Source of the DNA: Candidatus Eiseniibacteriota bacterium
GTDB taxonomy: Bacteria; Eisenbacteria; RBG-16-71-46; JABDJR01
Assembly: GCA_963762255.1 (NCBI GenBank)
Contig: CAVXKA010000001.1
Coordinates: 1,120,001-1,184,000 of the forward strand
Reading direction: 5' to 3'
DNA: 64,000 nt
Positions 7,258 through 35,740 of the stretch are shown piece after piece. The notes beneath the pieces were generated by a model, which had not been told where the DNA came from, did not search any database, and worked only from the letters and a program-made list of their open reading frames with translations. How positions within the stretch are numbered: the first letter of the stretch is position 1; each line of letters opens with the position of its first letter. The translations under genes were made by a program, and so were the position numbers.

Positions 7258-7267
7258 CGAAGGCCTC

Positions 7268-12913: not shown

Positions 12914-13010
12914 TCCGCCTCTGATCAATGTCCGGGGATCCGGTGGGAGGATGCTGCGAGGCGTCCTCCCACCCCATTCCGCCGTCCACTGAACCGCCAT
13001 CGGAGGGCCC

Positions 13011-13427: not shown

Positions 13428-13430
13428 GCG

Positions 13431-16255: not shown

Positions 16256-16268
16256 AGGAGAGGCTCCC

Positions 16269-21071: not shown

Positions 21072-22304
21072 TCAGAGCGGGGACTTCCCGAGGTTCATCG
21101 GTCCGTGGGGGATCTCGCGCCCGTCGACGCGGATCTCCATGCCCTCGAGTTCGTCCACTTCCGGGGCCTCCCGTGTGGGGAGCGTGATCGGGAGCATTCT
21201 CGGCGGACGCGCCTGGGCGCTCCAGACCAGGGTCACTAGATCCTCATCCTTGCGGATCCACACCGTGTGAAGATGGATCCTCACTTCCAGCGGCTTTCCC
21301 TGAAACGACATGCTCACCGCCGGTACCTCTCCGGGAAGGCGGAAGCGCCGTTCTCCAGCGAGATCGAGCCCCACCAGAGCGACCGATTCGTCGCCGCGCA
21401 GGAGCGGCACCGCGAGGCCGGGAGAAGCTCCGTTGAAGAACTCGCGGCGCAGTCTGCGATCCAGATCCGGATCGGCGGCCCGGTCCGCGTGATCGGCGGG
21501 CGCGATCCCCAGCTCCACTTCGCGCAGTCGGGCCGGCTCGGCGGGGGGAAGCGGCGGAGCGAGGCCGCCCATCACCGACCGCGGGTACCAGTTCCGCCCG
21601 AACCACCCGAGCCCCGCGGGTAGCGGCTGCCGCCACCAGAGTCTTGCGTCCCCGACCACGATCCGCTCCGGCGTCAGCAGGTCGTCCGGGTCTTCGAAGT
21701 TGGGGAGCGGGCGTTCGAGAAGGAGCCACTTGTGGGCGTTCACCACGTACGCCGCACCCACCGGATTCCGGGGGTAGACGCCGGGATGGCGCTCGAGGGT
21801 GAGGTACTCCATCCACTCCAGGGCGGTCTTCGGATCCTCGTTGCGCGGCACCGAGGGATCGACGCCGCCGTAAGCGCGCGTGTACGTGAGCGGCATCTCG
21901 CTGAAGGGCTCAGGCTCCGAGAAACGCAGGGCGCCTTCCCCGTCCGCCTCGATCCGACGGTCACCGAAGACCCGGATCGCTTTTCCGAAGTGGCCGATGC
22001 GAATCCCTGCCAGCATGTCCCGCCGGGGATAGGCGTCGGGGGTGCGGATCGTTCCGGTCACCACCACATCGGTGCGGAGCTTGAACGGGACCAACTCGCA
22101 CTCGGCGACCGGATAGTTGCCGGGCTCGTCTCCTTTGGGCTCGAGCACGTCCTCGGCGGCGAAGTCCACCGCATCCGGCGCGGGGGCGAGCCCCCCCTTC
22201 GGCTCGAGGACATAGGCGAGCTTCACCAGCAGCGTCACCGCCTCGTTGCCCTCGGCGTCCTTGGCCAAGTAGGGCGCAACCTTCATCGCGTGTTGGCTCA
22301 CCAT
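21072..22304 (-). CDS. DUF2169 family T6SS accessory/chaperone protein
   Basis: 'ELVPFKLRTDVVVTG', 'IRVFGDR', 'PEPFSEMPLTYTRAYGG', 'NPVG', 'LPNFEDP', 'PAGLGW...W.PR', 'FFNGASPG'. Start ATG at 22304 is coupled to the upstream stop. Confidence 0.85.
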   Translation of the reverse strand: MVSQHAMKVAPYLAKDAEGNEAVTLLVKLAYVLEPKGGLAPAPDAVDFAAEDVLEPKGDEPGNYPVAECELVPFKLRTDVVVTGTIRTPDAYPRRDMLAGIRIGHFGKAIRVFGDRRIEADGEGALRFSEPEPFSEMPLTYTRAYGGVDPSVPRNEDPKTALEWMEYLTLERHPGVYPRNPVGAAYVVNAHKWLLLERPLPNFEDPDDLLTPERIVVGDARLWWRQPLPAGLGWFGRNWYPRSVMGGLAPPLPPAEPARLREVELGIAPADHADRAADPDLDRRLRREFFNGASPGLAVPLLRGDESVALVGLDLAGERRFRLPGEVPAVSMSFQGKPLEVRIHLHTVWIRKDEDLVTLVWSAQARPPRMLPITLPTREAPEVDELEGMEIRVDGREIPHGPMNLGKSPL

Positions 22305-23194
22305 GATTCTCCAAGGACGGGCACTCCGCTCGTGGCCTGCTGCGCGGGGGAAGAGCCGCTCGGAGCGGCCGACGGCTGCTGCGCGCTGTCGACGAGACCA
22401 CCCACGGAGTAGTTCTGGACCGGCGCCCAGTGCGGGCCGCCGACATTCCAATAGAAGACCTTTACCTGGCCCGTGGTGAGATCGAGTTCGCCGATCTGGT
22501 AGGGGAGGGAGATCTTTCCCTCCATGATCGGGCTCAGGATCAGCCCCTTGGCCAGGTCCTCGGCCGCGGTGCCCAGGAGCGCGTTTCCCATCGCTCCGGC
22601 GAACGTACCGGCTCCGAATCGTTCCCCCAGTTTTCCGACCCACTGCCAGGCCTGGCCCAGGCTGCCGTTCGACTTCCCCAACTTGTTGAAGATGAGCGCG
22701 ATCACGATGGCGATGGCGATGCGAACGAGGCCCATGAGGATGTCGAGCGCGGTCAACCCCACGAACACCGTGTTCATCACCAGCAGGTACCCGCCGATCG
22801 GAAGCGGAACGGGGACGAAGCACTGGAGGAGGTTGATGAGGGGCGGGAAGTGTCCCGCGGTGGGCTTCCCTTCCGAGAGCACCGTTCCCGCGGCGAACAC
22901 GACCTTGCAGGACGACGTGGCGATGGCCACCGGACAAAGCGGGCCCACCGGAATGTCGACGTGGATGATCCCGATTCCGCTGTCGTGACCGATCTGCGCG
23001 GGGGTGAAGTTGTCGCTGAGGACCTTGGGCGAGGTGACCGCCGCCCCCGGCCCCCAGAAAAGGATGTGGGGCACCTCCACGAAGGGCAGGGGAACGGGGG
23101 GCGCAGTGTAGGGCGGCGGGATGTCCATGTGGGTCGCATACAGGAAGGCCAGCCGGACGTTCACGGTGTGGATGGCGAAGGTGGGGATGCTCAA
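22298..23194 (-). CDS. Divergent PAAR-like spike-tip protein with hydrophobic/TM C-terminal extension
   Basis: 'GHDSGIGIIH', 'SSCKVVFAAGTVLSEGKP', 'NTVFVG', then the hydrophobic helix 'LDILMGLVRIAIAIVIALIF'. Lies between two DUF2169 genes with a TTGA overlap. Confidence 0.5.
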   Translation of the reverse strand: MSIPTFAIHTVNVRLAFLYATHMDIPPPYTAPPVPLPFVEVPHILFWGPGAAVTSPKVLSDNFTPAQIGHDSGIGIIHVDIPVGPLCPVAIATSSCKVVFAAGTVLSEGKPTAGHFPPLINLLQCFVPVPLPIGGYLLVMNTVFVGLTALDILMGLVRIAIAIVIALIFNKLGKSNGSLGQAWQWVGKLGERFGAGTFAGAMGNALLGTAAEDLAKGLILSPIMEGKISLPYQIGELDLTTGQVKVFYWNVGGPHWAPVQNYSVGGLVDSAQQPSAAPSGSSPAQQATSGVPVLGESW

Positions 23195-24222
23195 GCCGCG
23201 GCCCCCGCGCTCCCCACGACGAGACGCGCGATGCGGATCTCCTCCGGCACCACCCGATACTTGAACGGGGTCCGGTGGACGAGCACGAAGCGCCCTTCCT
23301 CCGGATGGATGGTGATCGTGTCCACCTTGCCCTCGGGGTGGTACTCCTTGTCCCCCAGACGCACCGTTACTGCCGCCCGCAGATCGGGAACCGCGAACGC
23401 GAACCGCCCGCCGGCGTTCATGCCGGTGAGAACGATCGGTGTGCCGGGGAGGAGCGAGGGAAAGACCAGGTCGGGGTGGGCGTTCTGGAACACCTCGGGG
23501 CGAACGGTCTGCTCCCCCTTCTCCGCATCGTGAACCACCCCGCGTTCGACGGTGAAGAGCGTGCCGAGGGGAAGCGGAGCGAAGCCCGCGGGTCGCGGCT
23601 GATCCTGCCAGCTCGCGATGAGGCTCCTGGGATCCTCGATGTTGGGAAGATAGATCCCCTCGGCTTGTTCCACCTCCAGGCAGTAGCCCTTCCCCTCCAG
23701 GTTGTAGGGATTGGGCGCGTCGTAGACGCCGATCTTCGCCTTACCGCCGTAGGCGTTGGCGTAGGTCAAGGGGATGGCGGTGAAGGGCTCGGGCAAGGAC
23801 GCCGCAAAGGTCGGCGGCGGCTCCGGCTCGTTCTTCTTCCTCTTCTTCGGCTTGCCCTCGGGCTCGCGCTTCACCCAGCGACGGTCCCCGAACACCGCCA
23901 ACTCCCGCACCGCGTCGCCGACTTCCATGCGTACGGCCATCCGAGGCATCGGCTTGCCCTGCGGCGCAAGCGCCCGACCGACCACGAGCACGTCGACTCC
24001 CGGTTTGACCGGCGCCGTGTCGGGCGGGAGCACCCCGAGATCGGTTTCCTCGGCCTCGAACCGAAAGGGATCCTGCTCGGGGGCCAGCCGGATCTCCCCC
24101 GCATCGCTCACCGCATAGCTGACCTTGAGCACGACAAACGCCAGCATCGGCTCGCTCTCGTCCGGGGAGAGAGCGCTTCGCACGAGCTCGGCGGGAAAGG
24201 CGGATTCGTTCTCGAAGTCCAT
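23191..24222 (-). CDS. DUF2169 family T6SS accessory/chaperone protein (second copy)
   Basis: 'FENESAFPA', 'VVLKVSY', 'DTAPVKPGVDVLVVGRA', 'LAVFGDRRW', 'PEPFTAIPLTYANAYGG', 'LPNIEDP', 'FQNAHP'. Confidence 0.87.
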   Translation of the reverse strand: MDFENESAFPAELVRSALSPDESEPMLAFVVLKVSYAVSDAGEIRLAPEQDPFRFEAEETDLGVLPPDTAPVKPGVDVLVVGRALAPQGKPMPRMAVRMEVGDAVRELAVFGDRRWVKREPEGKPKKRKKNEPEPPPTFAASLPEPFTAIPLTYANAYGGKAKIGVYDAPNPYNLEGKGYCLEVEQAEGIYLPNIEDPRSLIASWQDQPRPAGFAPLPLGTLFTVERGVVHDAEKGEQTVRPEVFQNAHPDLVFPSLLPGTPIVLTGMNAGGRFAFAVPDLRAAVTVRLGDKEYHPEGKVDTITIHPEEGRFVLVHRTPFKYRVVPEEIRIARLVVGSAGAAA

Positions 24223-24229
24223 TCGTGCC

Positions 24230-24760
24230 TCAGCAGTTGAGCTTGATCCGCTCCCCGCGGACCCGGACATCATCGTTGGCTTTCAGATCCAGGCTGCCCC
24301 GCCGGGACCGCACCTCCACGGCGTGACCTTCGACCCGCGTCGCTCCCCCGGCGCGCATCACCGCCTCTCCATCCGCCGCCGCCTCGATGTTCCCCGCCGA
24401 ATGCAGCACGACCGATTCGGTCGCCTCCACCCGGAAGCGTTCGCACGCCACAGTGATCTCGCCCGGGCTCCCCAGCCTGAGGCCCGCCGCCTCGAACGAG
24501 AGGACGGGGCCGGCCGCGGTGAAGCGGACGCTCAGTTCCACGCGTCCATCGACCGCGGAAACGGTGAGGACGTCATCGCCATCGCGCCGCGTGAACTCGG
24601 CGCGGCGCCCGGATGCGAGGCGTAGCGGGGGGAGAGGAGCACCAGGGGGAGGCGCATCCACCACCAGCCCGGCTCCGATCTCGACCGAGTCGTCGGCGTG
24701 TTCCACCTCGAGCTCGACGGCGGGGGAGGCGTCGTCCTGGAATCGGCGTTCGATGCTCAT
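24230..24760 (-). CDS. Small beta-strand-repeat protein resembling an isolated gp5/VgrG spike needle (DUF6484/DUF3540-like context)
   Basis: C-terminal run of about 8-residue alternating strands ending 'GERIKLNC'; sits in a T6SS accessory operon. Confidence 0.5.
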   Translation of the reverse strand: MSIERRFQDDASPAVELEVEHADDSVEIGAGLVVDAPPPGAPLPPLRLASGRRAEFTRRDGDDVLTVSAVDGRVELSVRFTAAGPVLSFEAAGLRLGSPGEITVACERFRVEATESVVLHSAGNIEAAADGEAVMRAGGATRVEGHAVEVRSRRGSLDLKANDDVRVRGERIKLNC

Positions 24761-24770
24761 GGATGCTCCC

Positions 24771-26114
24771 TCAGTCCCGCTCCACGGGAAGCAGGAACGT
24801 GAATGTGATGGGTTTTCCCTCGAGGGGAACCGCCGAGCGGACCTGGATCTCGGCCATGGCGCGCGGGCCTTCGGGGCCCTCCACGGACGTCGCCTTCACG
24901 GCGACCGCCTCGTCGCCGCCGAGCGGGCCCAGGAACTTGCTCAGTTCGTCGCGGAAGAAGGTGGCAACCTCCTCAGGAGATCCGCCGGGCATCGCGTCGA
25001 GGAGGTTTCCGCAGAAGCGGGCTATGCGGCCGGCGGTGATCTGGTGGGCGAGCATCCCTTCCACGGTCAGCCGACCCGGAGCGAGGCGGGACACCGTGAC
25101 CGCGATCGGAATCATCGCGGTCCCCGCGCGCAACTGTCCGATGACCGGCGTGAACGCCGCGCGGGAGAGTTCCTGCGCCTTCATGTCCGGCATCGGGACC
25201 TCGGTCGAGAGGAGTGCGGTCTCGTTGGCCGCGACCGGATACGCCCGCGCAGGCAGGCTCTCGAACCGCCCCCCCCTGCCTCCGGACATGTCCAGCGCGT
25301 GCCCGAACACGCGGGCACTCCGCGCCAACGCCGCCGCGACGAGCCATCCGCCGCGCGCCCAGAGGAACGTCTCCGGCTTGGCCTCGGTCGTTCCTTCCGC
25401 ATAGTCCTCCGTCCGGTACGGTGCGCGCTCGAGGTGGCGGTTCAACGTGAGCGAGAACCAGCGCGCCTCTTCGGTGGCCTGGAACGCGGTCCACGCGGCG
25501 TGGGCAGGGTCGTTCAGCCGCCCCACCATGTCGGGCAGCGTGAGCACGTGCGCGAGGTGGCGCATGTCGAAGAAGCCCGCGCCGGCCGCGGCCACTGCTG
25601 GAGCCTGAAGCACCTTGGCCACGGCCGCCACCTCGCGCATCAACGCCAGGTCGGCCGCCTTGTGCGTGAAGTCGTAGTCGAGGAGCAGCAGCGTGGGGGG
25701 GGCGTCGCTGAGCATGCCCGGAGCGAGGACCGTCTCGCGCAGATGCTCCGCCAGCGACGCGCGAGAGACGGAGGCGACTTCGACCGCTACGTCCTCTCCG
25801 GCCTCGGACAGCAGCCGCGCCAGTCCACGCCACGCCGCCTCCAGTTGCTGGAGCGCGGGAGCGTGGAGGACCGCGTCGAGGGCTCCGCCGTCATCGCCGG
25901 TCAGCCCCAGCCTCTTTCTGAGAGCGCCCGGGGCCAGGTCGTCCAGCGAAGACGGGGTGAGCGTGACCATGCCCTTGCCGGGAACGGGGACCGCCGCCGA
26001 GGCGCCGATCTCGCGCAGGCGCTCTCCCAGGTCGGCGGCGCGCACGCGCAACGGCGGGGCGGGGTCGCCTCCCAGATCGGACAACACCGTGATCTTCCAG
26101 GGCAGAGATTCCAT
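24771..26114 (-). CDS. Single-chain TssB-TssC-like sheath protein (copy 2, 447 aa)
   Basis: N-terminal 'LPWKITVLSDLG...SLDDLAP' is TssB-like. 'VLHAPALQQLEAAWRGL', 'WTAFQATEEARWFSL', 'FLWARG' are TssC-like. GAGGAG RBS before ATG 26114. Confidence 0.75.
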   Translation of the reverse strand: MESLPWKITVLSDLGGDPAPPLRVRAADLGERLREIGASAAVPVPGKGMVTLTPSSLDDLAPGALRKRLGLTGDDGGALDAVLHAPALQQLEAAWRGLARLLSEAGEDVAVEVASVSRASLAEHLRETVLAPGMLSDAPPTLLLLDYDFTHKAADLALMREVAAVAKVLQAPAVAAAGAGFFDMRHLAHVLTLPDMVGRLNDPAHAAWTAFQATEEARWFSLTLNRHLERAPYRTEDYAEGTTEAKPETFLWARGGWLVAAALARSARVFGHALDMSGGRGGRFESLPARAYPVAANETALLSTEVPMPDMKAQELSRAAFTPVIGQLRAGTAMIPIAVTVSRLAPGRLTVEGMLAHQITAGRIARFCGNLLDAMPGGSPEEVATFFRDELSKFLGPLGGDEAVAVKATSVEGPEGPRAMAEIQVRSAVPLEGKPITFTFLLPVERD

Positions 26115-26166
26115 GACGACTCCTCGGTGTCCACGCGGCAGGCGGGGGGCCCGCCGCGATCCGCGG

Positions 26167-26643: not shown

Positions 26644-26646
26644 GGG

Positions 26647-28335: not shown

Positions 28336-28369
28336 CGCCGCCTCGCTTCCCGAACGCCGCTCGCGCGCA

Positions 28370-31300
28370 TCACTTCACCGGCTTCGCGGACTCGGAATAA
28401 GTCGCGGTGCAGAAGATGGTCGGGCAATTCGGCCCCAGACCCACGTTGCAGGTCCAGGTCCCGCTCGTAGCCGGAGGCGTGAACCAGACCACGAAGGTGT
28501 AGGACTGCCCCGGTCCCAGCGAGAAGGGCTCAGCCGGGAACTCGTAGGTGTCGTCGGTGAGCGAGTAATTGGGGCAGTTCACTGTCGGGAAACCGCTAAG
28601 GATTCCCGATCCGGTATTGGTGACCGTGACCTCTTCGGTAAGGGAGAAGTCGTAGGTGGTCCCCATATCGATATAGGTCCCGGGGTAGATCGAGCAGACC
28701 GCCGCGGACCCCGTGACCGGCACGGGTTGGCACTGAGTGCCGGTCGCGAGGGAGCAGGCGTACGTACCTCCGGCGTCCGGCTGGAACCGCACGGTCACGT
28801 TGCGCGACTGGCCCGCGCTCAGGTCGTACTTGCCCCCCCCCGAGACGATCCGGAATCCCGTGCAACTCTCCGTGACATCCCCGCTCAGGACGCCCCCTCC
28901 GATGTTCGTGATGGTCAGGTAGCCGTCCCGGTAGTAGCCGACCGTCACGGTGCCGAAGTCCAGGTTCTCGGTGCTGAGTGAACAGACCGGCGGGGGCTCG
29001 GCGGTGCACGCCACCTGACCGCAATCGCTTCCCAGGTTGATGTTGCAGTCGCCACCGGTGCCGGAGGCGCTGAAGTACTGCACGACCACGTCGCGGCTCG
29101 CTCCGGCACCCAGGCTGAACGACCCGCCGCCGCTGACGATGGAGTACGTGAAGCAGCTCTCGACGATCAAGCCGGTCACGAACCCGCCGCCGATGTTGGT
29201 AATCGTGAAGCTCCGTTGCACCGCCACCCCGGCAGGGGGAGCGCCGAAGTCGAGGCTTGTGGTGCTGAGCGAGCAGGCGGGTGCGGGTTGGGCGGTGCAC
29301 GCCACCTGGCCGCAATCGCTTCCCAGGCTCAAGTTGCAGTCGCCGCCGCTGCCGGATGAACTCAGGTACTGCACGATCACGTCGCGGCTTGCCTGCGCGC
29401 CGAGGCTGAACGAGCCGCCGCCGCTGACGATGCTGAAGTCGGGGCAGCTCTCGACGATCGAGCCGGTCACGAAGCCGCTGCCGATGTTGGTGATCGTGAA
29501 GCTCCGTTGCACCGCCGCCCCGGCAAGGGGAGCGCCGAAGTCGAGGCTTGTGGTGCTGAGCGAGCAGACCGGTGCGGGCTGGGCGGTGCACGCCACCTGG
29601 CCGCAATCGCTTCCCAGGCTGATGCTGCAGTTACCACCGGTGCCGGAGGCGCTGGAGTACTGCACGATTACGTCGCGGCTTGCCTGCGCGCCGAGGCTGA
29701 ACGACCCGCCGCCGCTGACAATGCTGAAGTCGGAGCAGCTCTCGACGATCGAGCCGGTCACGAAGCCGCCGCCGATGTTGGTGATCGTGAAGCTCCGTTG
29801 CACCGCCACCCCGGCAGGAGGAGCGCCGAAGTCGAGGCTTGTGGTGCTGAGCGAGCAATCCGCCGGTGCCGTGCCGACGCCGGAGAGGGGAACCCCTTCG
29901 CACGCGGTGCCGGTGGACACCGTGCAGGCGAACGCCCCGACCTCAACAGGCGCGAAGCGCACGGTCACGCTGACCGATTGGCCCGCCCCCAGGCTGAAGC
30001 CGCCGCCGCCCGAAACGAGAGTGAAGCCCGCGCACTGGGAAAGGCTCACCGTGCCGGTGAGCGTGCCGCTGCCGTCGTTGGTGATGACGAAGGTCTTCGA
30101 CGTTTCGGTCCGCACTTCCATCGCGTCGAAGTCGAGCGCCGACGGTCTGATCAGGCACTTCGGTGAGATCTCCCCGACCCCGGCAAGCTGGACCGCGGTG
30201 CAGGCGGTGCCCAGCTCGAGCTGGCAGGAGTAGGGGCCGGCGGCAGTCGGGAAGAAACGGACCGTGATCGAACGCGATTGATCCGCCCCCAGGCTGAAGT
30301 CGCCGCCGCCCGAAACGAGCGTGAAGCCCGCGCACTGGGAAAGGCTCACTGTGCCGGTGAGCGTGCCGCCGCCAGTGTTGGTGAGCTGAAGGGTGGTGGT
30401 ACTTTCCGTCCCCGCTTCGACGATTCCGAAGTCGAACCCGGGCGGTTGGACAACGCAGGCGGAAAGCGCCTCCCCCGTTCCAGTGAGAGAAACTGCGTCG
30501 CACTGCGTGCCCAACCCCACTTCGCAGGCGTGCGAGCCGACGTCGTCGGGGGAGAACTCCACGGTGACGGAGCGCGACTGCCCCTGTGTCAGGGAGAAGC
30601 TCCCGGCGCCGGAGAGCACGGAGTATCCCGCGCAATTCCCCAGGGACACCTCCCCGGTCAGGATGCCGCCGCCGGTGTTGGTCAAGGTGAAACTCCAGGT
30701 CGACCTGCTTCCCACCGCGCGCGGGCCGAAGTCGTGGCTCCCTTCCGAGAGCGAGCAGACAGGCGAAAGCTCCAGCGTCGAGCGCGTGGCCTCGGGGGTC
30801 CACGCGGACGTGTCGGCCCCGTCGAAAGCGCGCAGCCGATAGGTGTAGCTTGTCCCCGGTTGGAGATCGCCGTCGTCGAAGCTCCGGTCCGAGGGATCGG
30901 GGAGCCCGGCACGAATCCAGGGTCTGTCGCCCTGGCGCCGGTCGAGCTGAAACCCGGCCGGGTCGCGACTCGCAAAGGCCCACGTGATCCGGATCCCGGA
31001 AGACGAGAGCGTGACCGCCGTCAAGTTCTCCGGAGTCGGGATCGGGGTGTGGCCAACAGCGATGTTGGACCAATCCGAAACCCCGGCCGAGCCCTCGGCC
31101 CGCCCCCGGTACTCGTAGGTAGTCCGGTCGGCGAGGCCGGCATCGGTGTAGCTCACCTCACCCGAGAAACTCCCGGTGAGATGGGTGACCTCGGTGAACG
31201 TCTCCTCTCCCGCAACTCGCCGCAGGAGGCGGTAGCTGGTCTCGTTCTCCGCGTTGTCCTGCCAGGTGAGAAGGATCGAGGTTGCCGAAATCGGCTGCGC

Positions 31301-31789
31301 AACAAGCTCGCTGGGGGCGAGTGGAGGCTGAGCGTCGACGAGCATGAGCGTCACGGTGGCCGTCTCCCCCGAGCCCACCCCTTCGATCCCGGCTTCCCCC
31401 TCGTAGAGAACCACCCCGCCCCCCAGCGCCTCCACCCGCACGCGGTAGAGGTCGGCCGGAGGGACCTGGAGTTCCAGGCTGAAGGTGGAGTCCTCAGGGG
31501 CGATGTCATCGTTGGCCTGCGCCTGGAGCACCTCGGATTCGTCGGGCAATACCTCCCATGCGAAGGCCCGCACCCGATCGATCGGGGCCGCCTGTGCAAG
31601 AGGCTGGACCGGGGTCTCATCGAGGAAGACCACCTGCAATCGGAGCGACGCGACCGCCCCCGGCCTCGCCGCGTTGTGGTCCCCGCAGCCGAGGGAGAGC
31701 CACAGCATCGCCAGGATCGCGATCGAGATCCCGAAGTAGTGACGGGAGCGCATGGTGATAGGCCTTCCGATGTGCATCGCGCGCTTCAC
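28370..31789 (-). CDS. Large surface lipoprotein with two FN3 domains and eight Cys-containing ASH/HYDIN-like (choice-of-anchor D) Ig domains
   Basis: Lipobox LSLGC; FN3 motifs 'LTWQDNAENETSY', 'YTDAGL..TTYEYR'; eight 'C...DFG...TITNxGGG.LTG' units. Confidence 0.8.
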   Translation of the reverse strand: MKRAMHIGRPITMRSRHYFGISIAILAMLWLSLGCGDHNAARPGAVASLRLQVVFLDETPVQPLAQAAPIDRVRAFAWEVLPDESEVLQAQANDDIAPEDSTFSLELQVPPADLYRVRVEALGGGVVLYEGEAGIEGVGSGETATVTLMLVDAQPPLAPSELVAQPISATSILLTWQDNAENETSYRLLRRVAGEETFTEVTHLTGSFSGEVSYTDAGLADRTTYEYRGRAEGSAGVSDWSNIAVGHTPIPTPENLTAVTLSSSGIRITWAFASRDPAGFQLDRRQGDRPWIRAGLPDPSDRSFDDGDLQPGTSYTYRLRAFDGADTSAWTPEATRSTLELSPVCSLSEGSHDFGPRAVGSRSTWSFTLTNTGGGILTGEVSLGNCAGYSVLSGAGSFSLTQGQSRSVTVEFSPDDVGSHACEVGLGTQCDAVSLTGTGEALSACVVQPPGFDFGIVEAGTESTTTLQLTNTGGGTLTGTVSLSQCAGFTLVSGGGDFSLGADQSRSITVRFFPTAAGPYSCQLELGTACTAVQLAGVGEISPKCLIRPSALDFDAMEVRTETSKTFVITNDGSGTLTGTVSLSQCAGFTLVSGGGGFSLGAGQSVSVTVRFAPVEVGAFACTVSTGTACEGVPLSGVGTAPADCSLSTTSLDFGAPPAGVAVQRSFTITNIGGGFVTGSIVESCSDFSIVSGGGSFSLGAQASRDVIVQYSSASGTGGNCSISLGSDCGQVACTAQPAPVCSLSTTSLDFGAPLAGAAVQRSFTITNIGSGFVTGSIVESCPDFSIVSGGGSFSLGAQASRDVIVQYLSSSGSGGDCNLSLGSDCGQVACTAQPAPACSLSTTSLDFGAPPAGVAVQRSFTITNIGGGFVTGLIVESCFTYSIVSGGGSFSLGAGASRDVVVQYFSASGTGGDCNINLGSDCGQVACTAEPPPVCSLSTENLDFGTVTVGYYRDGYLTITNIGGGVLSGDVTESCTGFRIVSGGGKYDLSAGQSRNVTVRFQPDAGGTYACSLATGTQCQPVPVTGSAAVCSIYPGTYIDMGTTYDFSLTEEVTVTNTGSGILSGFPTVNCPNYSLTDDTYEFPAEPFSLGPGQSYTFVVWFTPPATSGTWTCNVGLGPNCPTIFCTATYSESAKPVK
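28968..29857. repeat. Three near-identical 291-bp (97-aa) tandem units inside the ASH-domain gene
   Basis: GTGGTGCTGAGCGAGCA occurs at 29259, 29550 and 29841 (period 291), with a diverged copy at 28968. Confidence 0.9.
29985..30370. repeat. Partial direct repeat with a 300-bp period (ASH domains 2 and 3)
   Basis: CGCCGCCGCCCGAAACGAG.GTGAAGCCCGCGCACTGGGAAAGGCTCAC.GTGCCGGTGAGCGTGCCGC occurs at 30001 and 30301. Confidence 0.8.
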
Positions 31790-32934
31790 AGCGTTCGCAT
31801 CGACAGGGTGAGCCCCACCGAGGTGCCGGTGAGCTTGTCGTCGGGTTCCCCTTCCCCACCTCCATCCAACTTGCCGCCGAGCCGCATCGCTTCAAGACGG
31901 AGCCGTCCACGGGTGCCGAGTTGGAACTCCAGCATCGGGCCTACCCCGTAGGTGTGGCCGTCCCAGGTCGGCGTATCGCTTCCGGTGATCTGGTTCCACT
32001 CGGAGGTCACCCCGGCTCGCACGCGCGTTCCGAGGGGCAGGCTGGCCTGCATGCGCGCCTGGACCGCGTTGCCGGAACTCGCCTTGAGTTCCTCCACGCT
32101 CTCCCCCCCGCTCGCCCGGACGGTGTTCTCCGCCTTGAGGACGGTCAGGGCCAGCGCCTCCACGCGCACACCGTTGCCTCCGCTCCGGCCCGCGGCCTGG
32201 AGCTCGAGCTGGTTGCCTTCCTCGAACAAGGTCGCGCCGTCGAGTTCGTCCTTTCCATAGATGCGATACACCGCATCCAGGCGAAGGAGGGCGGCGGGAC
32301 GATCCGCCGAGCCTCCCCCGAGATCGAGGCCGGCGGATGCCGAGACCTCGGGAGCGGGGCGGTAGTCACCGCCCCCCGCGAAAAGCGTGTAGCTCCCGCG
32401 GCGCACGAACCCTCCGCCCAGAGCGAATCGCGCGCGCGGAGCCAGCGGGAACGCGACGGCGAGTCCGCCGCTCAGGTTTAACCCTGCGCCGTAGTCCTTG
32501 GCGCGGAAGCCGAGGACCGGCAGCGCCAGCGTGCGCGCCACGGCGAACTCCTCCGTGTCGAGCTCGGTCGACCCGGTCGGAAAGCCGGCGCCGGCCTGCA
32601 CGAGGAGCCGGTCGTGCAGCAGGCGGATGAAGAGCTGCGCGTTGAGATCGGCGGCGCCGCCCAGCGAGGACGAGGATCCCTCGGCGGGGTCCACCGAGGC
32701 GAACGCACCGGATCCGGAGAGGACGAGGTCGGCTTGGCGGCCGATGCCGACCGTGGCCACAACCGGAAGATGGAGTTGGTCGATCGTGCCGGTCTCCGCG
32801 CCCCCGCGTTTCACGGTCCAACTCCGGTAGCTCCCGGGAATGCGCAAGGTGCCCGATGCATCCGCCAACGCGGGCATCATAGCGACGAGGAGCGCGGGCA
32901 GGAGAAGCGCGACGATGCTATAGCGCCGAATCAT
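31786..32934 (-). CDS. Putative outer-membrane beta-barrel protein
   Basis: Sec signal peptide (MIRRYSIVALLLPALLVAMMPALA) and amphipathic beta-strands throughout. ATGA and GTGA coupling to both neighbours. Confidence 0.65.
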   Translation of the reverse strand: MIRRYSIVALLLPALLVAMMPALADASGTLRIPGSYRSWTVKRGGAETGTIDQLHLPVVATVGIGRQADLVLSGSGAFASVDPAEGSSSSLGGAADLNAQLFIRLLHDRLLVQAGAGFPTGSTELDTEEFAVARTLALPVLGFRAKDYGAGLNLSGGLAVAFPLAPRARFALGGGFVRRGSYTLFAGGGDYRPAPEVSASAGLDLGGGSADRPAALLRLDAVYRIYGKDELDGATLFEEGNQLELQAAGRSGGNGVRVEALALTVLKAENTVRASGGESVEELKASSGNAVQARMQASLPLGTRVRAGVTSEWNQITGSDTPTWDGHTYGVGPMLEFQLGTRGRLRLEAMRLGGKLDGGGEGEPDDKLTGTSVGLTLSMRTL

Positions 32935-34565
32935 CGCTGCCTCCTCGGGAGGTCCCCGCCGATGAGAATGGTCCCGGTCAGGCCGTCTCCCTCGCCGAAC
33001 TTCTCGGTCTGCGTCACGGTGGGATCCCGGTCCGCCCATCGATCGAGGTCCGGCCCGGGCCCGAGGCCGGTCCATGCGCCGGTGCGCAGGAGCCGGTCGG
33101 CATCGCCTGCAGGAGCGGATGGCATCGTCTGCTCGAGTTCGGCGTGATCGACGCGGGTCTGGTCGTCGGGGGTAACCTCGGCGACATCGCGCGACTCGCG
33201 GGCTTCCTGGAACCCCGGGTCCCTGCTCAGGGCTTCCTTGAACGCGGCCAGCGCCTCCTCACTGCGGCCCTGATCTTCGAGCACCAATCCCTGAGACCAA
33301 GCCATGAACGCGCCGAAGTTGTCGGTGGCGATCCGCGAGATCGCGCGGCGCTCCTCCTCGGTGGGGGTCACGCCGAGGGCGGCCAGGATCTGCGCGAGAA
33401 GGTCCTTTTCCAGATGCAGGATACGGTTGAGCGGTCCGCTCACCGGGTTTCCCGCCGGCGCAAGAGTCCCTTCGCGCGTCGCCACGAGCGACGCGTCGAG
33501 GCGAACGTCACGTTCGCCCAACGGGGTGAAGGCCCCCTGCACGAAACGCCGGGCGCCGAGGATCTTCCCGAGCCGGGGCGCGGAGTCGGGGGCCACCGCG
33601 GTGACGATGGGAGCCTCGGCCGGCGCGAGCGCATCCATCGCCGACTTCATCGTAGCTTCGGTGCGCGGCCCGACGAGGCCGTCCGCGGTCAATCCGTGAT
33701 CGGTCTGGAACGCGCGCACCGACTCCACGAGCGCGGGGCTGCCCTGATCGTCCATGGCGCCGGTGAAATAGGGCTTCCCGGTGTCGGGGTCGATCAGCGC
33801 GGCGAGGCGCTCCTTGAGCCCCATCGCGGTGTCGATCGCATGCAACCGCGACGGGGTGGTAGCGGCCATTGCTGGCGGCTGCGCAAGGTCCAACTCGTCC
33901 AGCAGCACCTGCAGGCGGTCGCGCTCGAGCACGCGGAACTCGCCCACCTTGGAGAGATCGGTGACGAGGATCGCGGCCAGGCCCCGGGACAATGGGGCCA
34001 GGGTGTCGCTCGCCGCCACGTTGACGAAGTCCGGGACGGCCAGCGTGTTCTCGGGGATGGAACTCGCCGAGAGGCTCGCCTCCCGGGCCACCGCCGCCTT
34101 CACCTCGGCTTGCGCGCGCCGCCGGCTGATCTCGTTCAACCGCGCGCGCACCGCGGACGCATATTTGCCGTCTAGGTCGAGATACGCGCCGTATGCCTTG
34201 GCCGATCGGTCCAGTTGCCCGGTCGCCTCTGCGGCCCGCCCCAGATGGAACGCGGTCATGGAGTCCTTGGGATTTGCCTGCCAGGCCTTCTCCAAGGTCG
34301 TCACCGCCTCCTTGGTCTGTCCGGTTTCGAGAAGGGCGATGCCCAGGTTTCGGTTGAGAATCGCGTCGTCGGGCCGGGTCGCCAGCGCTTCGCGGAGCAC
34401 CGGCACCGCGGCCGTGTAATCGCCGCGGCGGAGGAGGTCGTCGCCGGGGCCTTGGGGGGCGGTCGCGCAGCCGGCGGCGAGGAGGCCGACCGCGAGGAGG
34501 GAGATCCGGATCGCGTTTGGGCCCCGCCACAGGATCGGACGCGGGTGATGCGTAGGCGACATCAC
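32931..34565 (-). CDS. TPR-repeat lipoprotein with a CsgG/TolB-N-like domain containing an inserted peptidoglycan-binding domain
   Basis: Lipobox LAAGC; TPRs; 'TLAVPDF.N...GLAAILVTDL...VLERDRLQVLLDEL...APRLGKILGA'; PG_binding_1-like 'VRAFQTDHGLTADGLVGPRT'; C-terminal TPR. Confidence 0.75.
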   Translation of the reverse strand: MMSPTHHPRPILWRGPNAIRISLLAVGLLAAGCATAPQGPGDDLLRRGDYTAAVPVLREALATRPDDAILNRNLGIALLETGQTKEAVTTLEKAWQANPKDSMTAFHLGRAAEATGQLDRSAKAYGAYLDLDGKYASAVRARLNEISRRRAQAEVKAAVAREASLSASSIPENTLAVPDFVNVAASDTLAPLSRGLAAILVTDLSKVGEFRVLERDRLQVLLDELDLAQPPAMAATTPSRLHAIDTAMGLKERLAALIDPDTGKPYFTGAMDDQGSPALVESVRAFQTDHGLTADGLVGPRTEATMKSAMDALAPAEAPIVTAVAPDSAPRLGKILGARRFVQGAFTPLGERDVRLDASLVATREGTLAPAGNPVSGPLNRILHLEKDLLAQILAALGVTPTEEERRAISRIATDNFGAFMAWSQGLVLEDQGRSEEALAAFKEALSRDPGFQEARESRDVAEVTPDDQTRVDHAELEQTMPSAPAGDADRLLRTGAWTGLGPGPDLDRWADRDPTVTQTEKFGEGDGLTGTILIGGDLPRRQR

Positions 34566-35740
34566 CGGCCTCCTCCCGAATTCATGGCCAGGTAGGCGCT
34601 GAGCCCCTGGGCACGGCCGGTGGCCGCCTCATCTCCAGGGTTTATCCGGCTCACCTCAGCCCAGGCGGTTCGCGCCGCGGCCAGGTCCCCGCGATCCTCG
34701 GCCAGGATGGCTTCGCCGGTCTTGAGCAGGAGATCCATGTAGGCCGTGTCCTTGAGGAGTGCCTTCCGCTTGTCCTCCAGATAGGGCTTCATCGACTTCT
34801 CGAGGTCCTCCTTACCTCCCGCGCTGCCCAGGAGCTTCTGCAGCCGCGGAACGAGGTGCTCCAGCAGTACCCGGCGCTCGAGCTTGAATAGATCGTCGGA
34901 GGAGCCCAACGATCCCTCCACGCCCTCGGCGAGGAGGATCTCCCCGGTGGAGGTGTCCACCCAGCGCAGGTCGAGCCGCACCTTCTTCTCATCCACCTGC
35001 ATGAGGCTACCGAAGAGAAAGGACTGCGCGCCGGTCAGCTTGCCCAGCGGGACCCGGTAACGCGGGTCGGTGATCTGCGCGTTCTGGCTCATCTGGATCT
35101 CTTCGCGGAGAACGTTCAGGCGCTGGCGATCCACCAGGGTAAGCGGCGTGGCCTCCTGCAGATCCGTGATCATGATCTGCGTGAGCCCCTTGGCGAACGC
35201 GTTCAGGTTGTACTTGCCGGTCACGATCGAGTTGTTCTCGATGTCTCCCACCGCCAGGGTCCGGATGTCGAGCCGTGAAGTCCCGATCCCGTCGGCGCCG
35301 CCGGCGAGGAGCAGGCTGTCCCGGAGCCCATAGAAGAGCGTCACCAGCGGGGGGGGCAGGACCTCGGGTCGTTCGAGTTCCGCACCGGGATCGTCGCGCA
35401 GGATCTCCAGAATGGCCGCCCTTGCTTGCGGGGCGCGCCCCGAGGCCAGGTGCACCGCAGCGAGGGCGGAGAGGACCCGGCGCCGCTCGCCGGCGGCCAC
35501 CGAGGCGTCGGCCAGGACGACCTGCCCGCACGCAATAGCCTCCGTCTGGCGTAGGTCGAAGAAGAAACTCATGGGGTCTTGCCGGAAAGAGGCCAGCGTG
35601 GTGGGGTCGGCGGGCTGTGCCGAGGCACACGGAGGCATCGCCGCCGCCGCGGTGAGGAGCGCCAGGACCGAGAGGAGGCTTATAAAGTGTCCGCGCGCCG
35701 CGGACGGGATGCGTGTCGAGGTCACAATCGTTTGGAGCAT
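34562..35740 (-). CDS. Secreted CsgG/HfaB-family protein
   Basis: Signal peptide; 'TLAVGDIEN...GLTQIMITDL...LVDRQRLNVLREE...LGKLTGAQSFLFGS...RLDLRWVDTSTGEI'. Start codon uncertain. Confidence 0.75.
   Translation of the reverse strand: MLQTIVTSTRIPSAARGHFISLLSVLALLTAAAAMPPCASAQPADPTTLASFRQDPMSFFFDLRQTEAIACGQVVLADASVAAGERRRVLSALAAVHLASGRAPQARAAILEILRDDPGAELERPEVLPPPLVTLFYGLRDSLLLAGGADGIGTSRLDIRTLAVGDIENNSIVTGKYNLNAFAKGLTQIMITDLQEATPLTLVDRQRLNVLREEIQMSQNAQITDPRYRVPLGKLTGAQSFLFGSLMQVDEKKVRLDLRWVDTSTGEILLAEGVEGSLGSSDDLFKLERRVLLEHLVPRLQKLLGSAGGKEDLEKSMKPYLEDKRKALLKDTAYMDLLLKTGEAILAEDRGDLAAARTAWAEVSRINPGDEAATGRAQGLSAYLAMNSGGGR

What the first reader, a model, noticed from the sequence alone, without database searches (positions are those of the whole stretch)
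21072..35740. Candidate new system: 11-gene operon linking a surface adhesin/export module to single-chain sheath proteins and a non-canonical spike-tip module
Seen: 11 co-directional genes with overlapping or very short junctions (GTGA, ATGA, GTGA, 34, 3, 52, 10, 7 bp, TTGA, 7-nt overlap). Order: CsgG-like, TPR/CsgG/PG-binding lipoprotein, beta-barrel, FN3+8xASH lipoprotein, TssB-C fusion, DUF922 peptidase, TssB-C fusion, mini-spike, DUF2169, PAAR-like TM protein, DUF2169. It has no Hcp, baseplate or ClpV of its own, so it is not a stand-alone T6SS. I do not recognise this combination from described T6SS, eCIS or tailocin loci. Inference: an add-on module that modifies the neighbouring T6SS with alternative sheath subunits and tip, and couples it to target attachment through a long surface adhesin.
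Basis: partly seen in the sequence, partly recalled or inferred. Interest (0 to 1): 0.88.

Follow-up and report, generated by a model that had tools for sequence, protein, structure and literature searches.

The report
T6SS accessory arm, fused sheath paralogs
The eleven genes are real, but they are the second arm of one ordinary type VI secretion locus in an uncultured soil bacterium, built from three separable modules, and its two single-chain copies of the contractile sheath belong to a widespread protein family that no paper I could search describes.

Summary
Observation confirmed. Eleven co-directional minus-strand genes (21072-35740) have exactly the stated junctions and nearly all the stated domains.

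Interpretation partly supported. This is not a separate system. It is the convergent accessory arm of the genome's only, complete T6SS-i locus (phylum Candidatus Eisenbacteria).

The arm is made of three modules with different ranges:
- **G8-G11** fit the Tvp-type spike-loading sets published in 2026: a mini-VgrG, two DUF2169 proteins and a tip protein. They are a variant of these, not a member.
- **G5 and G7** are single-chain TssB-TssC sheath paralogs. In some relatives a DUF922 zincin gene lies between them. All 31 relatives fetched carry at least one such paralog, and other phyla carry them beside T6SS genes too. They lack the N-terminal arm of TssB and the first ~57-81 residues of TssC. 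My searches found no description of them.
- **G1-G4** are an envelope module that also occurs in relatives without a TssF match. It nevertheless sits directly upstream of whichever fused paralog is present in 9 of 31 relatives.

Most likely the arm holds T6SS accessory factors: tip loading, a special sheath layer or firing factor, and an anchor or contact module. All functions are inferred. No expression or experimental data exist.

The parts
34562..35740 (-). G1: secreted (type-I signal peptide by eye) TPR plus partial CsgG/LpoB-like domain protein, 392 aa
   Evidence: Pfam CsgG E 1.3e-12 (profile positions 10-104 of 210) and LpoB 1.9e-4. Solved CsgG scores only E 0.48. Orthologs lie next to T6SS genes in relatives.
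32931..34565 (-). G2: lipoprotein (LAAGC lipobox by eye) with TPR, partial CsgG-like, PG_binding_1 and TPR domains, 544 aa
   Evidence: Pfam. Single copy in the genome. It carries the only peptidoglycan-binding domain found in this locus; no OmpA domain lies in the window.
31786..32934 (-). G3: outer-membrane beta-barrel, 382 aa, no named family
   Evidence: No Pfam or NCBIfam hit. AF2 model pLDDT 82.2, all-beta barrel. Foldseek gives only generic barrels (FadL, porins; TM 0.35-0.45). Homologs in 36 of 206 genomes of the phylum.
28370..31789 (-). G4: lipoprotein with 2 fn3 and 8 ASH/HYDIN-type Ig repeats, 1139 aa
   Evidence: Pfam. Eight repeat motifs. A 291-bp unit repeated 3.1 times at 88% matches, 28952-29857.
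26647..28335 (-). G5: single-chain TssB-TssC sheath paralog ('G5-type', long form with a disordered Pro/Ala linker at 84-137), 562 aa
   Evidence: Pfam and NCBIfam, below the TssC equivalog cut-off. Alignment to solved TssC begins at TssC residues 57-76. AF2 pLDDT 89.8, pTM 0.86. Foldseek against 5urw TssC: TMt 0.80 over 414 of 414 columns.
26167..26643 (-). G6: DUF922 predicted zincin metallopeptidase, no signal peptide by eye, 158 aa
   Evidence: Pfam 1.7e-24. HExxH invariant in 6 of 6 orthologs aligned. DUF922 is classed as zincin-like in PMC3650047 (passages read). Lies between the G5 and G7 orthologs in 5 of the 14 relatives that carry the pair.
24771..26114 (-). G7: single-chain TssB-TssC sheath paralog ('G7-type', short, no long linker), 447 aa
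   Evidence: Pfam VipB 2.2e-38. Aligns to solved TssC from residue 77-82. 28% identical to G5 over G5 180-533. Start conserved as M-x-x-x-P-W-K/R in orthologs.
24230..24760 (-). G8: mini-spike, candidate TvpC-like trimer, 176 aa
   Evidence: Weak DUF2345 (8.4e-6) and DUF3540 (0.023) hits, both below cut-off. hhalign to a DUF6484 protein of another phylum: probability 60.6, E 8.3e-5. No match to the window's own VgrG. In the predicted complex its C-terminal tip, 169-176, touches G10.
23191..24222 (-). G9: DUF2169 (TvpA-like) protein, 343 aa
   Evidence: Pfam 4.2e-57.
22298..23194 (-). G10: candidate spike-tip protein with invariant IP[PA]PY motif (25-29), hydrophobic segment about 135-172 and a C-terminal part of unknown fold, 298 aa
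   Evidence: No Pfam family at E up to 1. hhalign to a DUF4150 protein negative. Motif conserved in 4 of 4 orthologs. Hydropathy. Predicted to cap the G8 trimer: ipSAE 0.65 against a best control of 0.00.
21072..22304 (-). G11: second DUF2169 (TvpA-like) protein, 410 aa
   Evidence: Pfam 1.3e-53.
18954..21065 (+). VgrG, the only one in the genome, convergent with G11
   Evidence: Pfam Phage_GPD 2.4e-97, Gp5_trimer_C, Phage_base_V. One Phage_GPD match in the genome.
1227..18899 (+). T6SS-i core arm: TssJ, TssK, TssL, TssM, TagF, TssA, TssB, TssC (reading frame broken), Hcp (broken), TssE, TssF, TssG, ClpV
   Evidence: Pfam and genome searches. The breaks are described.

Best explanation
The 11 genes are the convergent accessory arm of a single, complete T6SS-i locus, not a machine of their own. 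They form three modules.

**(i) G8-G11, a Tvp-type spike-loading set.**
- G8 is a small VgrG-like trimer.
- G9 and G11 are two DUF2169 chaperone-like proteins.
- G10 is a tip protein with a membrane segment and is probably itself the cargo.
- By analogy with the published Tvp pre-complex, G10 is first held on the G8 trimer and then handed to the one VgrG.

**(ii) G5 and G7, single-chain TssB-TssC paralogs, with the DUF922 zincin G6 between them in some lineages.**
- They keep the sheath core fold.
- They lack the N-terminal arm of TssB, the C-terminal third of TssB and the first ~57-81 residues of TssC. By my recall these are the mesh-linking arm and the ClpV-recognised domain.
- They therefore most likely join the normal TssBC/Hcp tail as a special end layer or assembly/firing factor. 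They are unlikely to build a sheath alone.

**(iii) G1-G4, an envelope module.**
- It comprises a periplasmic TPR/CsgG-like protein, a TPR/CsgG-like/PG-binding lipoprotein, an outer-membrane barrel and an Ig-repeat lipoprotein.
- It can stand alone, and in several Eisenbacteria lineages it has been kept in one operon with the fused paralog.
- It most likely acts as a cell-wall/outer-membrane anchor or contact-site factor for the T6SS.

**Shown:** gene order, domains, folds of G5 and G3, conservation and distribution. **Inferred:** every function and every physical interaction.
For: **Locus.**
- A full T6SS-i core faces the arm.
- The genome has a single Hcp match and a single VgrG match.

**Synteny.**
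- 11-gene colinearity in 3 of 31 relatives fetched.
- G1-G2-G3 directly upstream of a fused paralog in 9 of 31, and G2-G3 in 2 more.
- The adjacent paralog is the G5+G7 pair, G7-type alone or S-type, depending on lineage.
- In one further genome G1-G2-G3 follow ClpV co-directionally.

**Fused paralogs.**
- All 31 relatives fetched have at least one. These relatives were chosen because they had a second sheath match.
- 45 of the 53 genomes with any sheath match have two or more matches.
- G5 model: pLDDT 89.8, TMt 0.80 to TssC of 5urw.
- An iterated TssB profile hits 88 of 101 rows and none of the 10 canonical TssC rows.
- Canonical TssB has about 30 residues before the first core strand. G5-type has 8-11 and G7-type 3-4.
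- Alignments to TssC start at residues 57-82, while canonical VipB-N starts at residue 71 of a 495-aa TssC.
- The same architecture lies beside T6SS genes in Nitrospirota, Acidobacteriota and Acetobacteraceae contigs. A Planctomycetota contig carries the G5/G7-type pair, but no T6SS core gene was seen in the stretch held.

**Tip set.**
- DUF2169 twice.
- G8 resembles a DUF6484 TvpC-type protein by hhalign (probability 60.6, E 8.3e-5).
- Predicted G8 trimer plus G10(1-140): median ipSAE 0.65, best of 3 controls 0.00. That mark was reached by 58 of 80 solved complexes and 2 of 110 mismatched pairs. Runs agree in at least 80% of contacts. Partner pLDDT is 49-60. The contact is at the G8 C-terminal tip.
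- The Tvp scheme comes from PMC13373197 (abstract and sections 8, 9, 12 read).

**Envelope.**
- G2 holds the only PG-binding domain of the locus.
- The DotU match in TssL reaches to about 23 residues from the end of the protein, and Pfam reports no other domain in it.
Against: - No expression or experimental data exist. No RNA run holds the stretch.
- G10 has no PAAR, DUF4150 or DUF4280 hit at E up to 1. hhalign to a DUF4150 protein is negative.
- The complex score may reflect likeness to solved VgrG-PAAR structures. The partner's own fold is uncertain (pLDDT under 50 in one run). The job used three copies and my own 4-row alignments, unlike the calibration.
- G8 matches only below cut-offs and does not match the window's own VgrG.
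- In described Tvp clusters the genes lie downstream of vgrG. Here they are on the opposite strand.
- The envelope module occurs in genomes with no TssF match: 0 of 5 searched, 92-99% complete. It also occurs away from the T6SS contig in one T6SS-bearing genome.
- 15 of 31 relatives have none of G1-G4 in the stretch fetched next to their fused paralog. Adjacency may therefore be history rather than function.
- That the missing N-terminal arm and domain 3 mean 'end layer, ClpV-blind' rests on my recall of sheath structure papers, not on a call.
- The paralog tree is FastTree only, with long branches.
Confidence: 0.55

Rival explanations
1. All 11 genes form one integrated add-on system. A surface adhesin (G4), exported by G1-G3, attaches the cell to its target. 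This is mechanically or regulatorily coupled to an alternative sheath (G5/G7) and an alternative tip (G8-G11).
For: - The operon is tight: the largest gap is 52 bp and five junctions overlap.
- Full colinearity in 3 of 31 relatives. The envelope trio is kept directly upstream of whichever fused paralog type a lineage has, in 9 of 31.
- G4 is a lipoprotein with 8 Ig-like repeats.
- Known T6SS target-recognition accessories (TslA with OmpA, TagM1, TagQRST) give a precedent for envelope proteins directing assembly to contact sites (PMC13584744, section 7 read).
Against: - The three parts occur separately. The envelope module is found without T6SS.
- Fused paralogs occur without envelope genes, both in 15 of 31 relatives and in other phyla.
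- DUF2169 genes lie downstream of vgrG, on the other arm, in more distant relatives.
- G4 is missing or replaced in several lineages that keep G1-G3 plus a paralog.
- The arm encodes no inner-membrane component that could connect periplasmic G1-G4 to cytoplasmic G5/G7.
Confidence: 0.2
2. The envelope module G1-G4 is an unrelated neighbour, a general outer-membrane/cell-wall or surface-protein system. It merely shares a transcription unit with T6SS accessory genes by descent. Only G5-G11 concern the T6SS.
For: - G2-G3 or G1-G2-G3 occur in 3 genomes where TssF was sought and not found. Two further G3-bearing genomes also lack a TssF match (0 of 5 searched).
- A second module copy (G1,G1,G2,G3,G4,G4) lies on a contig other than the T6SS contig in one genome.
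- G3 homologs occur in 36 of 206 genomes, and 11 of those have no sheath match.
- An Atlas lead suggests G3-like clusters in other phyla (a lead only).
Against: - The module is adjacent to T6SS genes in at least four arrangements and four families. It lies upstream of the pair, of G7-type alone and of S-type paralogs, and downstream of ClpV. G1 alone lies between VgrG and ClpV or directly before G5.
- In the window genome the only copy of G2 is this one.
Confidence: 0.22
3. The canonical sheath and tube genes are dead in this genome, and G5/G7 have taken over as the working sheath.
For: In the window, tssC carries about 12 single-base indels and hcp about 4 relative to the closest relative. 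Flanking genes are intact.
Against: - Relatives with the same 11 genes have an intact 495-aa TssC with both Pfam domains.
- Contigs of four public runs (two studies) lack the three hcp indels at 12588, 12673 and 12690.
- One contig over tssC differs from the window by 20 gaps, while most other listed pieces show 0-2. This points to consensus errors in this assembly.
- There is no second Hcp.
Confidence: 0.03

Closest known systems
Tvp accessory complexes of T6SS (TvpA = DUF2169, TvpC = mini-VgrG, DUF4150/PIPY PAAR-like protein; classes I-III; PMC13373197, EMBO J 2026)
   Same: - DUF2169 proteins sit next to a small VgrG-like protein and a tip-protein gene, beside the vgrG gene.
- The G8 trimer is predicted to carry G10 on its C-terminal tip.
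- G8 weakly resembles DUF6484- and DUF3540-type TvpC.
   Different: - Two DUF2169 genes flank the tip gene.
- There is no pentapeptide-repeat TvpB and no TvpD.
- The tip protein has no DUF4150 or PAAR signature beyond an IP[PA]PY motif, and it carries a membrane segment.
- The genes are on the strand opposite to vgrG.
- The paper's appendix figures on other phyla could not be seen.
Canonical T6SS sheath TssB/TssC (VipA/VipB)
   Same: - Same core fold: TMt 0.80 to TssC of 5urw, with TssB-like strands at the N-terminus.
- Encoded in a T6SS locus.
   Different: - One polypeptide instead of two.
- Scores 161 and 125 bits against the 271.5-bit TssC equivalog cut-off.
- G5 and G7 lack the ~20-27 N-terminal residues of TssB.
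- G5 lacks the C-terminal third of TssB; for G7 this was not measured.
- Both lack the first ~57-81 residues of TssC.
- At least three deep clades separate from canonical TssC.
Multi-paralog sheaths of extracellular contractile injection systems (Afp2/3/4, Pvc2/3/4). Recalled, not tested here.
   Same: Several sheath paralogs in one machine, some confined to particular layers. This is the model for the 'special layer' reading.
   Different: - Those systems have their own tube and baseplate genes next to the paralogs. This arm has none.
- Foldseek similarity of G5 to AFP/PVC sheaths is much weaker (TM about 0.3).
T6SS firing coordinators and structural accessories (TssA, TsmA/TagA, TsmB/TagB, TagJ; TagL as peptidoglycan anchor). 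Review PMC13584744 and listing of PMC8253398.
   Same: - Accessory proteins that act on sheath assembly, residence time or recycling, or that tie the membrane complex to the cell wall.
- G5/G7 and G2 would fit these roles.
   Different: - No sequence relation.
- None of the described ones is a sheath homolog.
- G2 binds the wall, if at all, through PG_binding_1, not an OmpA-like domain.
T6SS target-recognition factors (TslA with OmpA, TagM1, TagQRST). Review PMC13584744, section 7.
   Same: Periplasmic or outer-membrane lipoproteins plus an outer-membrane protein, encoded in T6SS loci, which place assembly at cell contacts.
   Different: - No homology tested or found.
- The G1-G3 module also exists without T6SS.

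Membership tests
T6SS-i locus (whole region) | Core genes TssA-M, Hcp, VgrG and ClpV present in one locus | tested here: met
   TssJ. TssK, M, A, F, G and TagF. TssL and Hcp. TssB and TssE. TssC (frame broken). ClpV and VgrG.
Stand-alone contractile injection system (eCIS, tailocin or second T6SS) for 21072-35740 | Own tube, baseplate and spike hub genes | tested here: not met
   None among the 11 products. One Hcp match and one Phage_GPD match in the whole genome, both in the other arm.
TssC (NCBIfam TIGR03355 equivalog) | Score at or above the curated cut-off of 271.5 bits | tested here: not met
   G5 scores 161.4 bits and G7 125.2 bits.
TssC/VipB fold | Sheath core fold including the C-terminal gp25-like domain | tested here: met
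   - G5 model against 5urw TssC: E 4.5e-22, TMt 0.80, 414 of 414 columns.
- Pfam VipB_2 itself was not detected.
- G7 was not modelled. It aligns to G5 through G5 residue 533.
Canonical two-gene sheath protomer | Separate TssB with a full N-terminal arm, and TssC with its N-terminal ~70 residues | tested here: not met
   Fused architecture. N-terminal arm absent. TssC-like part starts at TssC residues 57-82.
Tvp accessory complex | DUF2169 (TvpA) protein | tested here: met
   G9 4.2e-57, G11 1.3e-53.
Tvp accessory complex | DUF4150/PAAR-containing partner | tested here: inconclusive
   No Pfam hit and hhalign negative. However, the IP[PA]PY motif is invariant in 4 of 4 orthologs, and the tip contact is predicted at ipSAE 0.65 against a best control of 0.00.
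Tvp accessory complex, classes II/III | TvpC: trimeric OB-fold plus beta-prism mini-VgrG (DUF6484 or DUF3540) | tested here: inconclusive
   DUF3540 E 0.023 and DUF2345 8.4e-6, both below cut-off. hhalign to a DUF6484 protein: probability 60.6 over 52 columns. No separate structure model was made.
Tvp accessory complex | Genes downstream of their vgrG on the same strand | tested here: not met
   Opposite strand, stop codons 6 bp apart. Co-directional in more distant relatives.
CsgG curli channel | Full-length CsgG domain with transmembrane hairpins, and a lipoprotein | tested here: not met
   G1 matches profile positions 10-104 of 210 and G2 positions 13-82. Solved CsgG scores E 0.48. G1 has no lipobox by eye.
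Slam-type surface-lipoprotein translocon | TPR domain plus DUF560 barrel | tested here: not met
   G3 has no Pfam family at E up to 1. G2's TPR_Slam hit is below cut-off (31.7 against 35.2 bits). The functional analogy is not excluded.
DUF922 zincin | Family match above cut-off and a conserved HExxH | tested here: met
   87.1 bits against a cut-off of 27. H94, E95 and H98 invariant in 6 of 6 orthologs.

The most novel reading that the evidence does not exclude
Single-chain TssB-TssC paralogs are a new class of T6SS component: at least three ancient clades, in Eisenbacteria and several other phyla. They keep the sheath core but lack the strand-donating N-terminal arm and the ClpV-recognised domain. 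They would form a dedicated terminal ring or collar of the sheath that ClpV cannot strip, so that the baseplate-proximal or distal end persists between firings. In Eisenbacteria this would be co-expressed with an envelope contact or anchor module that fixes where the tail is built. The DUF922 zincin between the two paralogs would process or regulate them.
Probability: 0.22. Interest if true: 0.8.

Novelty: new variant of a known kind. Interest (0 to 1): 0.6.

Why it matters
- **A possible missing part class.** T6SS sheaths are thought to be built from one TssB/TssC pair, and accessory 'firing coordinators' known so far are not sheath homologs. Here a conserved family of fused sheath paralogs sits in T6SS loci of several poorly studied phyla. 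Of the 170 related sequences retrieved, at least 115 carry the TssB-like N-terminus. If they form a special sheath layer, this would link T6SS to the multi-paralog sheaths of extracellular injection systems. It would also give a handle on how sheath ends are defined and spared from recycling.
- **A wider range for Tvp-like sets.** The locus extends the newly described Tvp spike-loading scheme to a phylum outside those named in that paper, in a new arrangement.
- **A testable envelope link.** A TPR/CsgG-like/barrel envelope module is repeatedly linked to T6SS, which makes it a testable candidate for anchoring or contact sensing.

Tried and rejected
- **Rfam:** no RNA family in the window.
- **PADLOC:** no defence-family hit for G1, G3, G5, G6 or G7.
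- **Promoter and terminator consensus scans:** 0 promoters and 1 plus-strand terminator-like site, fewer than in shuffles. Uninformative for this organism.
- **RNA:** no RNA holder was listed for the stretch. Co-transcription across 28336-28369 could not be tested.
- **Contigs:** they show only that the junction exists as DNA in three runs of one study.
- **First search for related loci attempt:** failed with the 14-sequence alignment A1, which had no conserved stretch. It was repeated with the 7 closest sequences (A2).
- **G10 as a DUF4150 protein:** hhalign negative. Atlas features gave only sub-threshold PAAR-type leads at 0.80-0.83.
- **G8 against the window's own VgrG:** no similarity.
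- **G3:** no specific barrel family by Foldseek. The word-based homolog search found only 6 proteins.
- **G6:** no solved relative by sequence.
- **G5/G7 as replacement for a dead canonical sheath:** rejected.
- **Envelope module as a TssJ substitute:** rejected, because TssJ is present.
- **Literature:**
  - No paper in the held library describes fused TssB-TssC paralogs.
  - No paper combines DUF922 with type VI secretion.
  - Neither of the two papers holding both 'Eisenbacteria' and 'type VI secretion' has either term in its title or abstract. In the one I checked by passages the two are unrelated.
  - The 2026 review of accessory factors has no occurrence of 'paralog', 'CsgG' or 'adhes'.
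- **Not seen:** subscription-only papers and all supplementary files. The appendix figures of PMC13373197 may show Tvp arrangements in other phyla.

Full report
**Observation.**
- The 11 minus-strand ORFs exist at the stated coordinates.
- Pfam and NCBIfam confirm most labels:
  - G1: partial CsgG-like domain plus weak TPR.
  - G2: TPR, partial CsgG-like domain and PG_binding_1.
  - G4: two fn3 and ASH/HYDIN Ig repeats, eight by motif count.
  - G5 and G7: VipB N-domain. G5 also has a weak VipA hit.
  - G6: DUF922. G9 and G11: DUF2169. G8: sub-threshold DUF2345 and DUF3540.
- G3 and G10 have no family. G3 folds as a beta-barrel (AF2 pLDDT 82.2) with only generic barrel neighbours in the PDB.
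- Corrections. G1 has a type-I-like signal peptide rather than a lipobox (by eye). The CsgG matches cover only the first half of the profile, and solved CsgG is not a significant match. 'PAAR-like' for G10 has no family-level support.

**Context.**
- The plus strand upstream holds a complete T6SS-i core: TssJ, K, L, M, TagF, TssA, B, C, Hcp, E, F, G, ClpV and VgrG.
- VgrG ends 6 bp from the G11 stop, in convergent orientation.
- The 4.14-Mb genome has one Hcp match and one VgrG match. There is therefore one T6SS, and the 11 genes are its second arm.
- Record titles of the closest loci name the phylum Candidatus Eisenbacteria.

**Conservation.**
- G5 finds sheath-type matches in 53 of 206 genomes of the phylum. 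45 of those 53 have two or more matches (matches are not copy numbers).
- I fetched the neighbourhood of the second match in 31 relatives and laid the window's proteins on them. These relatives were chosen because they had a second match, so they are not a random sample.
- The second match was a fused TssB-TssC-type paralog in all 31.
- All 11 genes plus the convergent core are colinear in 3 of 31, all of one genus in the window's family.
- How the 31 split:

| Envelope genes next to the fused paralog | Relatives |
|---|---|
| G1-G2-G3 directly upstream | 9 |
| G2-G3 upstream | 2 |
| G1 alone next to G5 | 2 |
| Only a G4-like gene at a contig end | 3 |
| None of G1-G4 in the stretch held | 15 |

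- In one further genome G1-G2-G3 follow ClpV on the same strand. In another, G2-G3 lie 6 kb from a DUF2169-VgrG pair.
- The module is not bound to T6SS:
  - G3 homologs occur in 36 of 206 genomes, and 11 of these have no sheath match.
  - G2-G3 or G1-G2-G3 are present in three genomes in which, as in two more, TssF was not found (0 of 5; 92-99% complete).
  - One T6SS-bearing genome has a full G1,G1,G2,G3,G4,G4 set on another contig.

**The fused sheath paralogs.**
- G5 aligns to solved TssC from TssC residues 57-76 to about 404. G7 aligns from residues 77-82.
- Both score below the TssC equivalog cut-off (161 and 125 bits against 271.5).
- With a 68-sequence alignment, AF2 gives a confident G5 model (pLDDT 89.8, pTM 0.86) with a disordered Pro/Ala linker at 84-137.
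- Foldseek puts the model on TssC of the Myxococcus sheath over the whole 414-residue target (TMt 0.80). The C-terminal domain is therefore present although Pfam VipB_2 misses it.
- G7 is 28% identical to G5 through that region.
- The N-terminal 70-83 residues are TssB-like:
  - Weak Pfam VipA hit in G5.
  - Precomputed VipA plus VipB domains in homologs.
  - A Nitrospirota member scores VipA 2.6e-18 and VipB 2.5e-74.
  - An iterated TssB profile hits 88 of 101 rows, including G5 and G7, and none of the 10 canonical TssC rows.
- Family size. 3614 representatives at E up to 1e-3, most of them presumably canonical TssC, and 159 at 1e-30. Of the 170 sequences retrieved, 115 show a TssB-like stretch to a single-sequence search, 114 of them at the N-terminus.
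- A FastTree of 101 rows was built. 16 of the 70 sheath-like ORFs found were left out as fragments, frameshifted or over-extended frames, or a duplicate. 45 representatives were drawn at random. The tree separates:
  - a tight canonical TssC clade;
  - a short 'S-type' fused clade beside it;
  - a G7-type clade;
  - a G5-type clade inside a larger group of long fused forms from Nitrospirota, Acidobacteriota and Thermodesulfobacteriota.
- Planctomycetota carry a G5-type/G7-type pair as well.
- Types among the 31 relatives:

| Fused paralog type | Relatives |
|---|---|
| G5+G7 pair | 14 |
| G7-type alone | 7 |
| Divergent G7-like form | 2 |
| S-type alone | 7 |
| Another long form | 1 |

- Every relative with a G5-type also has a G7-type.
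- The envelope trio sits upstream of each of the three main configurations.
- Canonical TssB has about 30 residues, including a KERVNIVYK segment, before the first core strand. G5-type proteins have 8-11 and G7-type 3-4. Other fused clades keep longer N-termini.
- From my recall of the sheath structure papers (not tested here):
  - The TssB N-terminal arm is one of the two strands that knit protomers into the mesh.
  - The TssB C-terminal helices together with the TssC N-terminus form the surface domain that ClpV recognises.
- G5 and G7 lack the N-terminal arm and the TssC N-terminus. For G5 the C-terminal third of TssB is also missing. I did not measure this for G7.

**The tip set.**
- A 2026 paper defines Tvp complexes. 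A DUF2169 protein (TvpA) stabilises a DUF4150/PAAR protein. In classes II and III a trimeric mini-VgrG (TvpC; DUF6484 or DUF3540) holds a pre-complex that VgrG later replaces (PMC13373197; abstract and sections 8, 9, 12 read).
- G8-G11 resemble this:
  - Two DUF2169 proteins.
  - A 176-aa protein with sub-threshold DUF2345/DUF3540 hits and hhalign probability 60.6 to a DUF6484 protein.
  - A tip candidate, G10.
- The predicted complex of three G8 chains with G10(1-140) scored a median ipSAE of 0.65 against 0.00 for the best of three controls.
  - That mark was reached by 58 of 80 solved complexes and 2 of 110 mismatched pairs.
  - Runs agree in at least 80% of contacts. Partner pLDDT is 49-60.
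  - G8 residues 169-176 of the three copies touch G10 55-65 and 102-112.
  - The pass may reflect likeness to solved VgrG-PAAR structures. The partner's own fold is uncertain, and the job differed from the calibration.
- G10 has an invariant IP[PA]PY motif. This recalls the PIPY motif that gives DUF4150 its newer name (PMC13584744, section 12). Even so, hhalign to a DUF4150 protein is negative.
- G10 also has a hydrophobic segment at about 135-172.
- The set departs from the described classes: two TvpA-like genes, no TvpB or TvpD, and the strand opposite to vgrG. In more distant relatives DUF2169 lies downstream of vgrG on the same strand.

**DUF922.**
- G6 has an invariant HExxH. Its family was classed as zincin-like (PMC3650047, passages read).
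- It lies between the G5 and G7 orthologs in 5 of the 14 relatives that carry the pair. It is therefore optional.
- Its position beside a protein with a long exposed linker suggests processing, but nothing tests this.

**How it most likely works.**
- *Shown:* one T6SS; an operon-like arm; the domain and fold assignments above; the distribution.
- *Inferred, from most to least secure:*
  1. G8-G11 load the tip of the single VgrG in a Tvp-like two-step way, with G10 as tip and probably as membrane-acting cargo.
  2. G5 and G7 act on or within the TssBC/Hcp tail, because they are sheath-fold proteins kept in T6SS loci across phyla. Without the N-terminal arm and the ClpV-recognised domain they are unlikely to propagate a normal sheath. 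They more likely form an end layer or act as an assembly or firing factor.
  3. G1-G3, with G4 where present, serve the T6SS as a wall/outer-membrane anchor or contact-site module in the lineages that keep them in the same operon. G2 carries the only peptidoglycan-binding domain of the locus, and TssL shows no domain beyond DotU. The closest functional precedents are TagL and the TslA/OmpA and TagQRST target-recognition factors (PMC13584744, sections 7 and 8, by passages; PMC8253398, listing only).

**Novelty.**
- Eight full-text searches were made. None found a paper on fused TssB-TssC paralogs, on DUF922 with T6SS, or on a CsgG-like envelope module in T6SS loci.
- On T6SS in Eisenbacteria, two papers hold both terms. 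Neither has them in its title or abstract, and in the one whose passages I read the two terms are unrelated.
- The 2026 review of accessory factors does not contain 'paralog', 'CsgG' or 'adhes'.
- The tip set is a variant of a described kind. The locus as a whole is a new variant of T6SS-i. The fused paralog family is the element that deserves follow-up.

**Side finding.**
- In the window, tssC (10809-12306) differs from the closest relative by about 12 single-base indels and hcp by about 4. Neighbouring genes are intact.
- Contigs of four public runs from two studies lack the hcp indels at 12588, 12673 and 12690. One contig across tssC shows 20 gaps against the window, while most other listed pieces show 0-2.
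- These populations are a few per cent diverged, so this is not proof. Localised consensus error in this assembly is the simplest reading.

**Limits.**
- There are no transcripts, no experiments, and only two single-chain models and one complex prediction.
- The relatives were sampled because they had a second sheath match.
- Kin are not independent.
- The tree is a quick one with long branches.

Noticed in passing
window 10809-12913 (+): Canonical tssC and hcp are broken by about 12 and about 4 single-base indels relative to the closest relative, while the flanking T6SS genes are intact. Contigs of four public runs lack the three hcp indels listed. The likely cause is local consensus error in this assembly.
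   Followed up: partly
window 28952-29857: A 291-bp unit repeated 3.1 times at 88% matches inside G4. This means three of the eight Ig-like repeats are recent near-copies, and the number and order of G4-like repeats vary between relatives.
   Followed up: partly
window 36030-37139 (+): A CAP (cysteine-rich secretory) domain protein with a C-terminal FlgD_ig domain is transcribed divergently from G1. Its C-terminal domain finds matches near the T6SS or envelope loci of many relatives. These may simply be a common sorting or Ig domain.
   Followed up: no
L066 98-11821 (Nitrospirota contig): The order is VgrG, DUF6484, DUF2169, Tox-PAAR-like, three unknown ORFs, a HEAT-repeat protein, then a 633-aa fused VipA+VipB protein. 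A class-II-like Tvp set is thus followed by a fused sheath paralog in another phylum.
   Followed up: partly
L042/L043 and L101 (relatives' loci): Several T6SS and accessory genes appear split into pieces in different frames in two relatives' assemblies (G5, G7, G9 and TssG in one; TssC, TssF and ClpV in the other). This suggests frameshift errors are common in these assemblies.
   Followed up: no
L089 and L090/L074 (relatives of a sister family): A divergent G7-like fused paralog follows TagF directly in the TssK-TssM-TagF arm, where the window has TssA. I did not check whether those genomes have a TssA.
   Followed up: no
L103 3427-5040: A genome with no TssF match has a weak VgrG-like hit (E 7e-19) 5 kb from its G2-G3 pair.
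   Followed up: no
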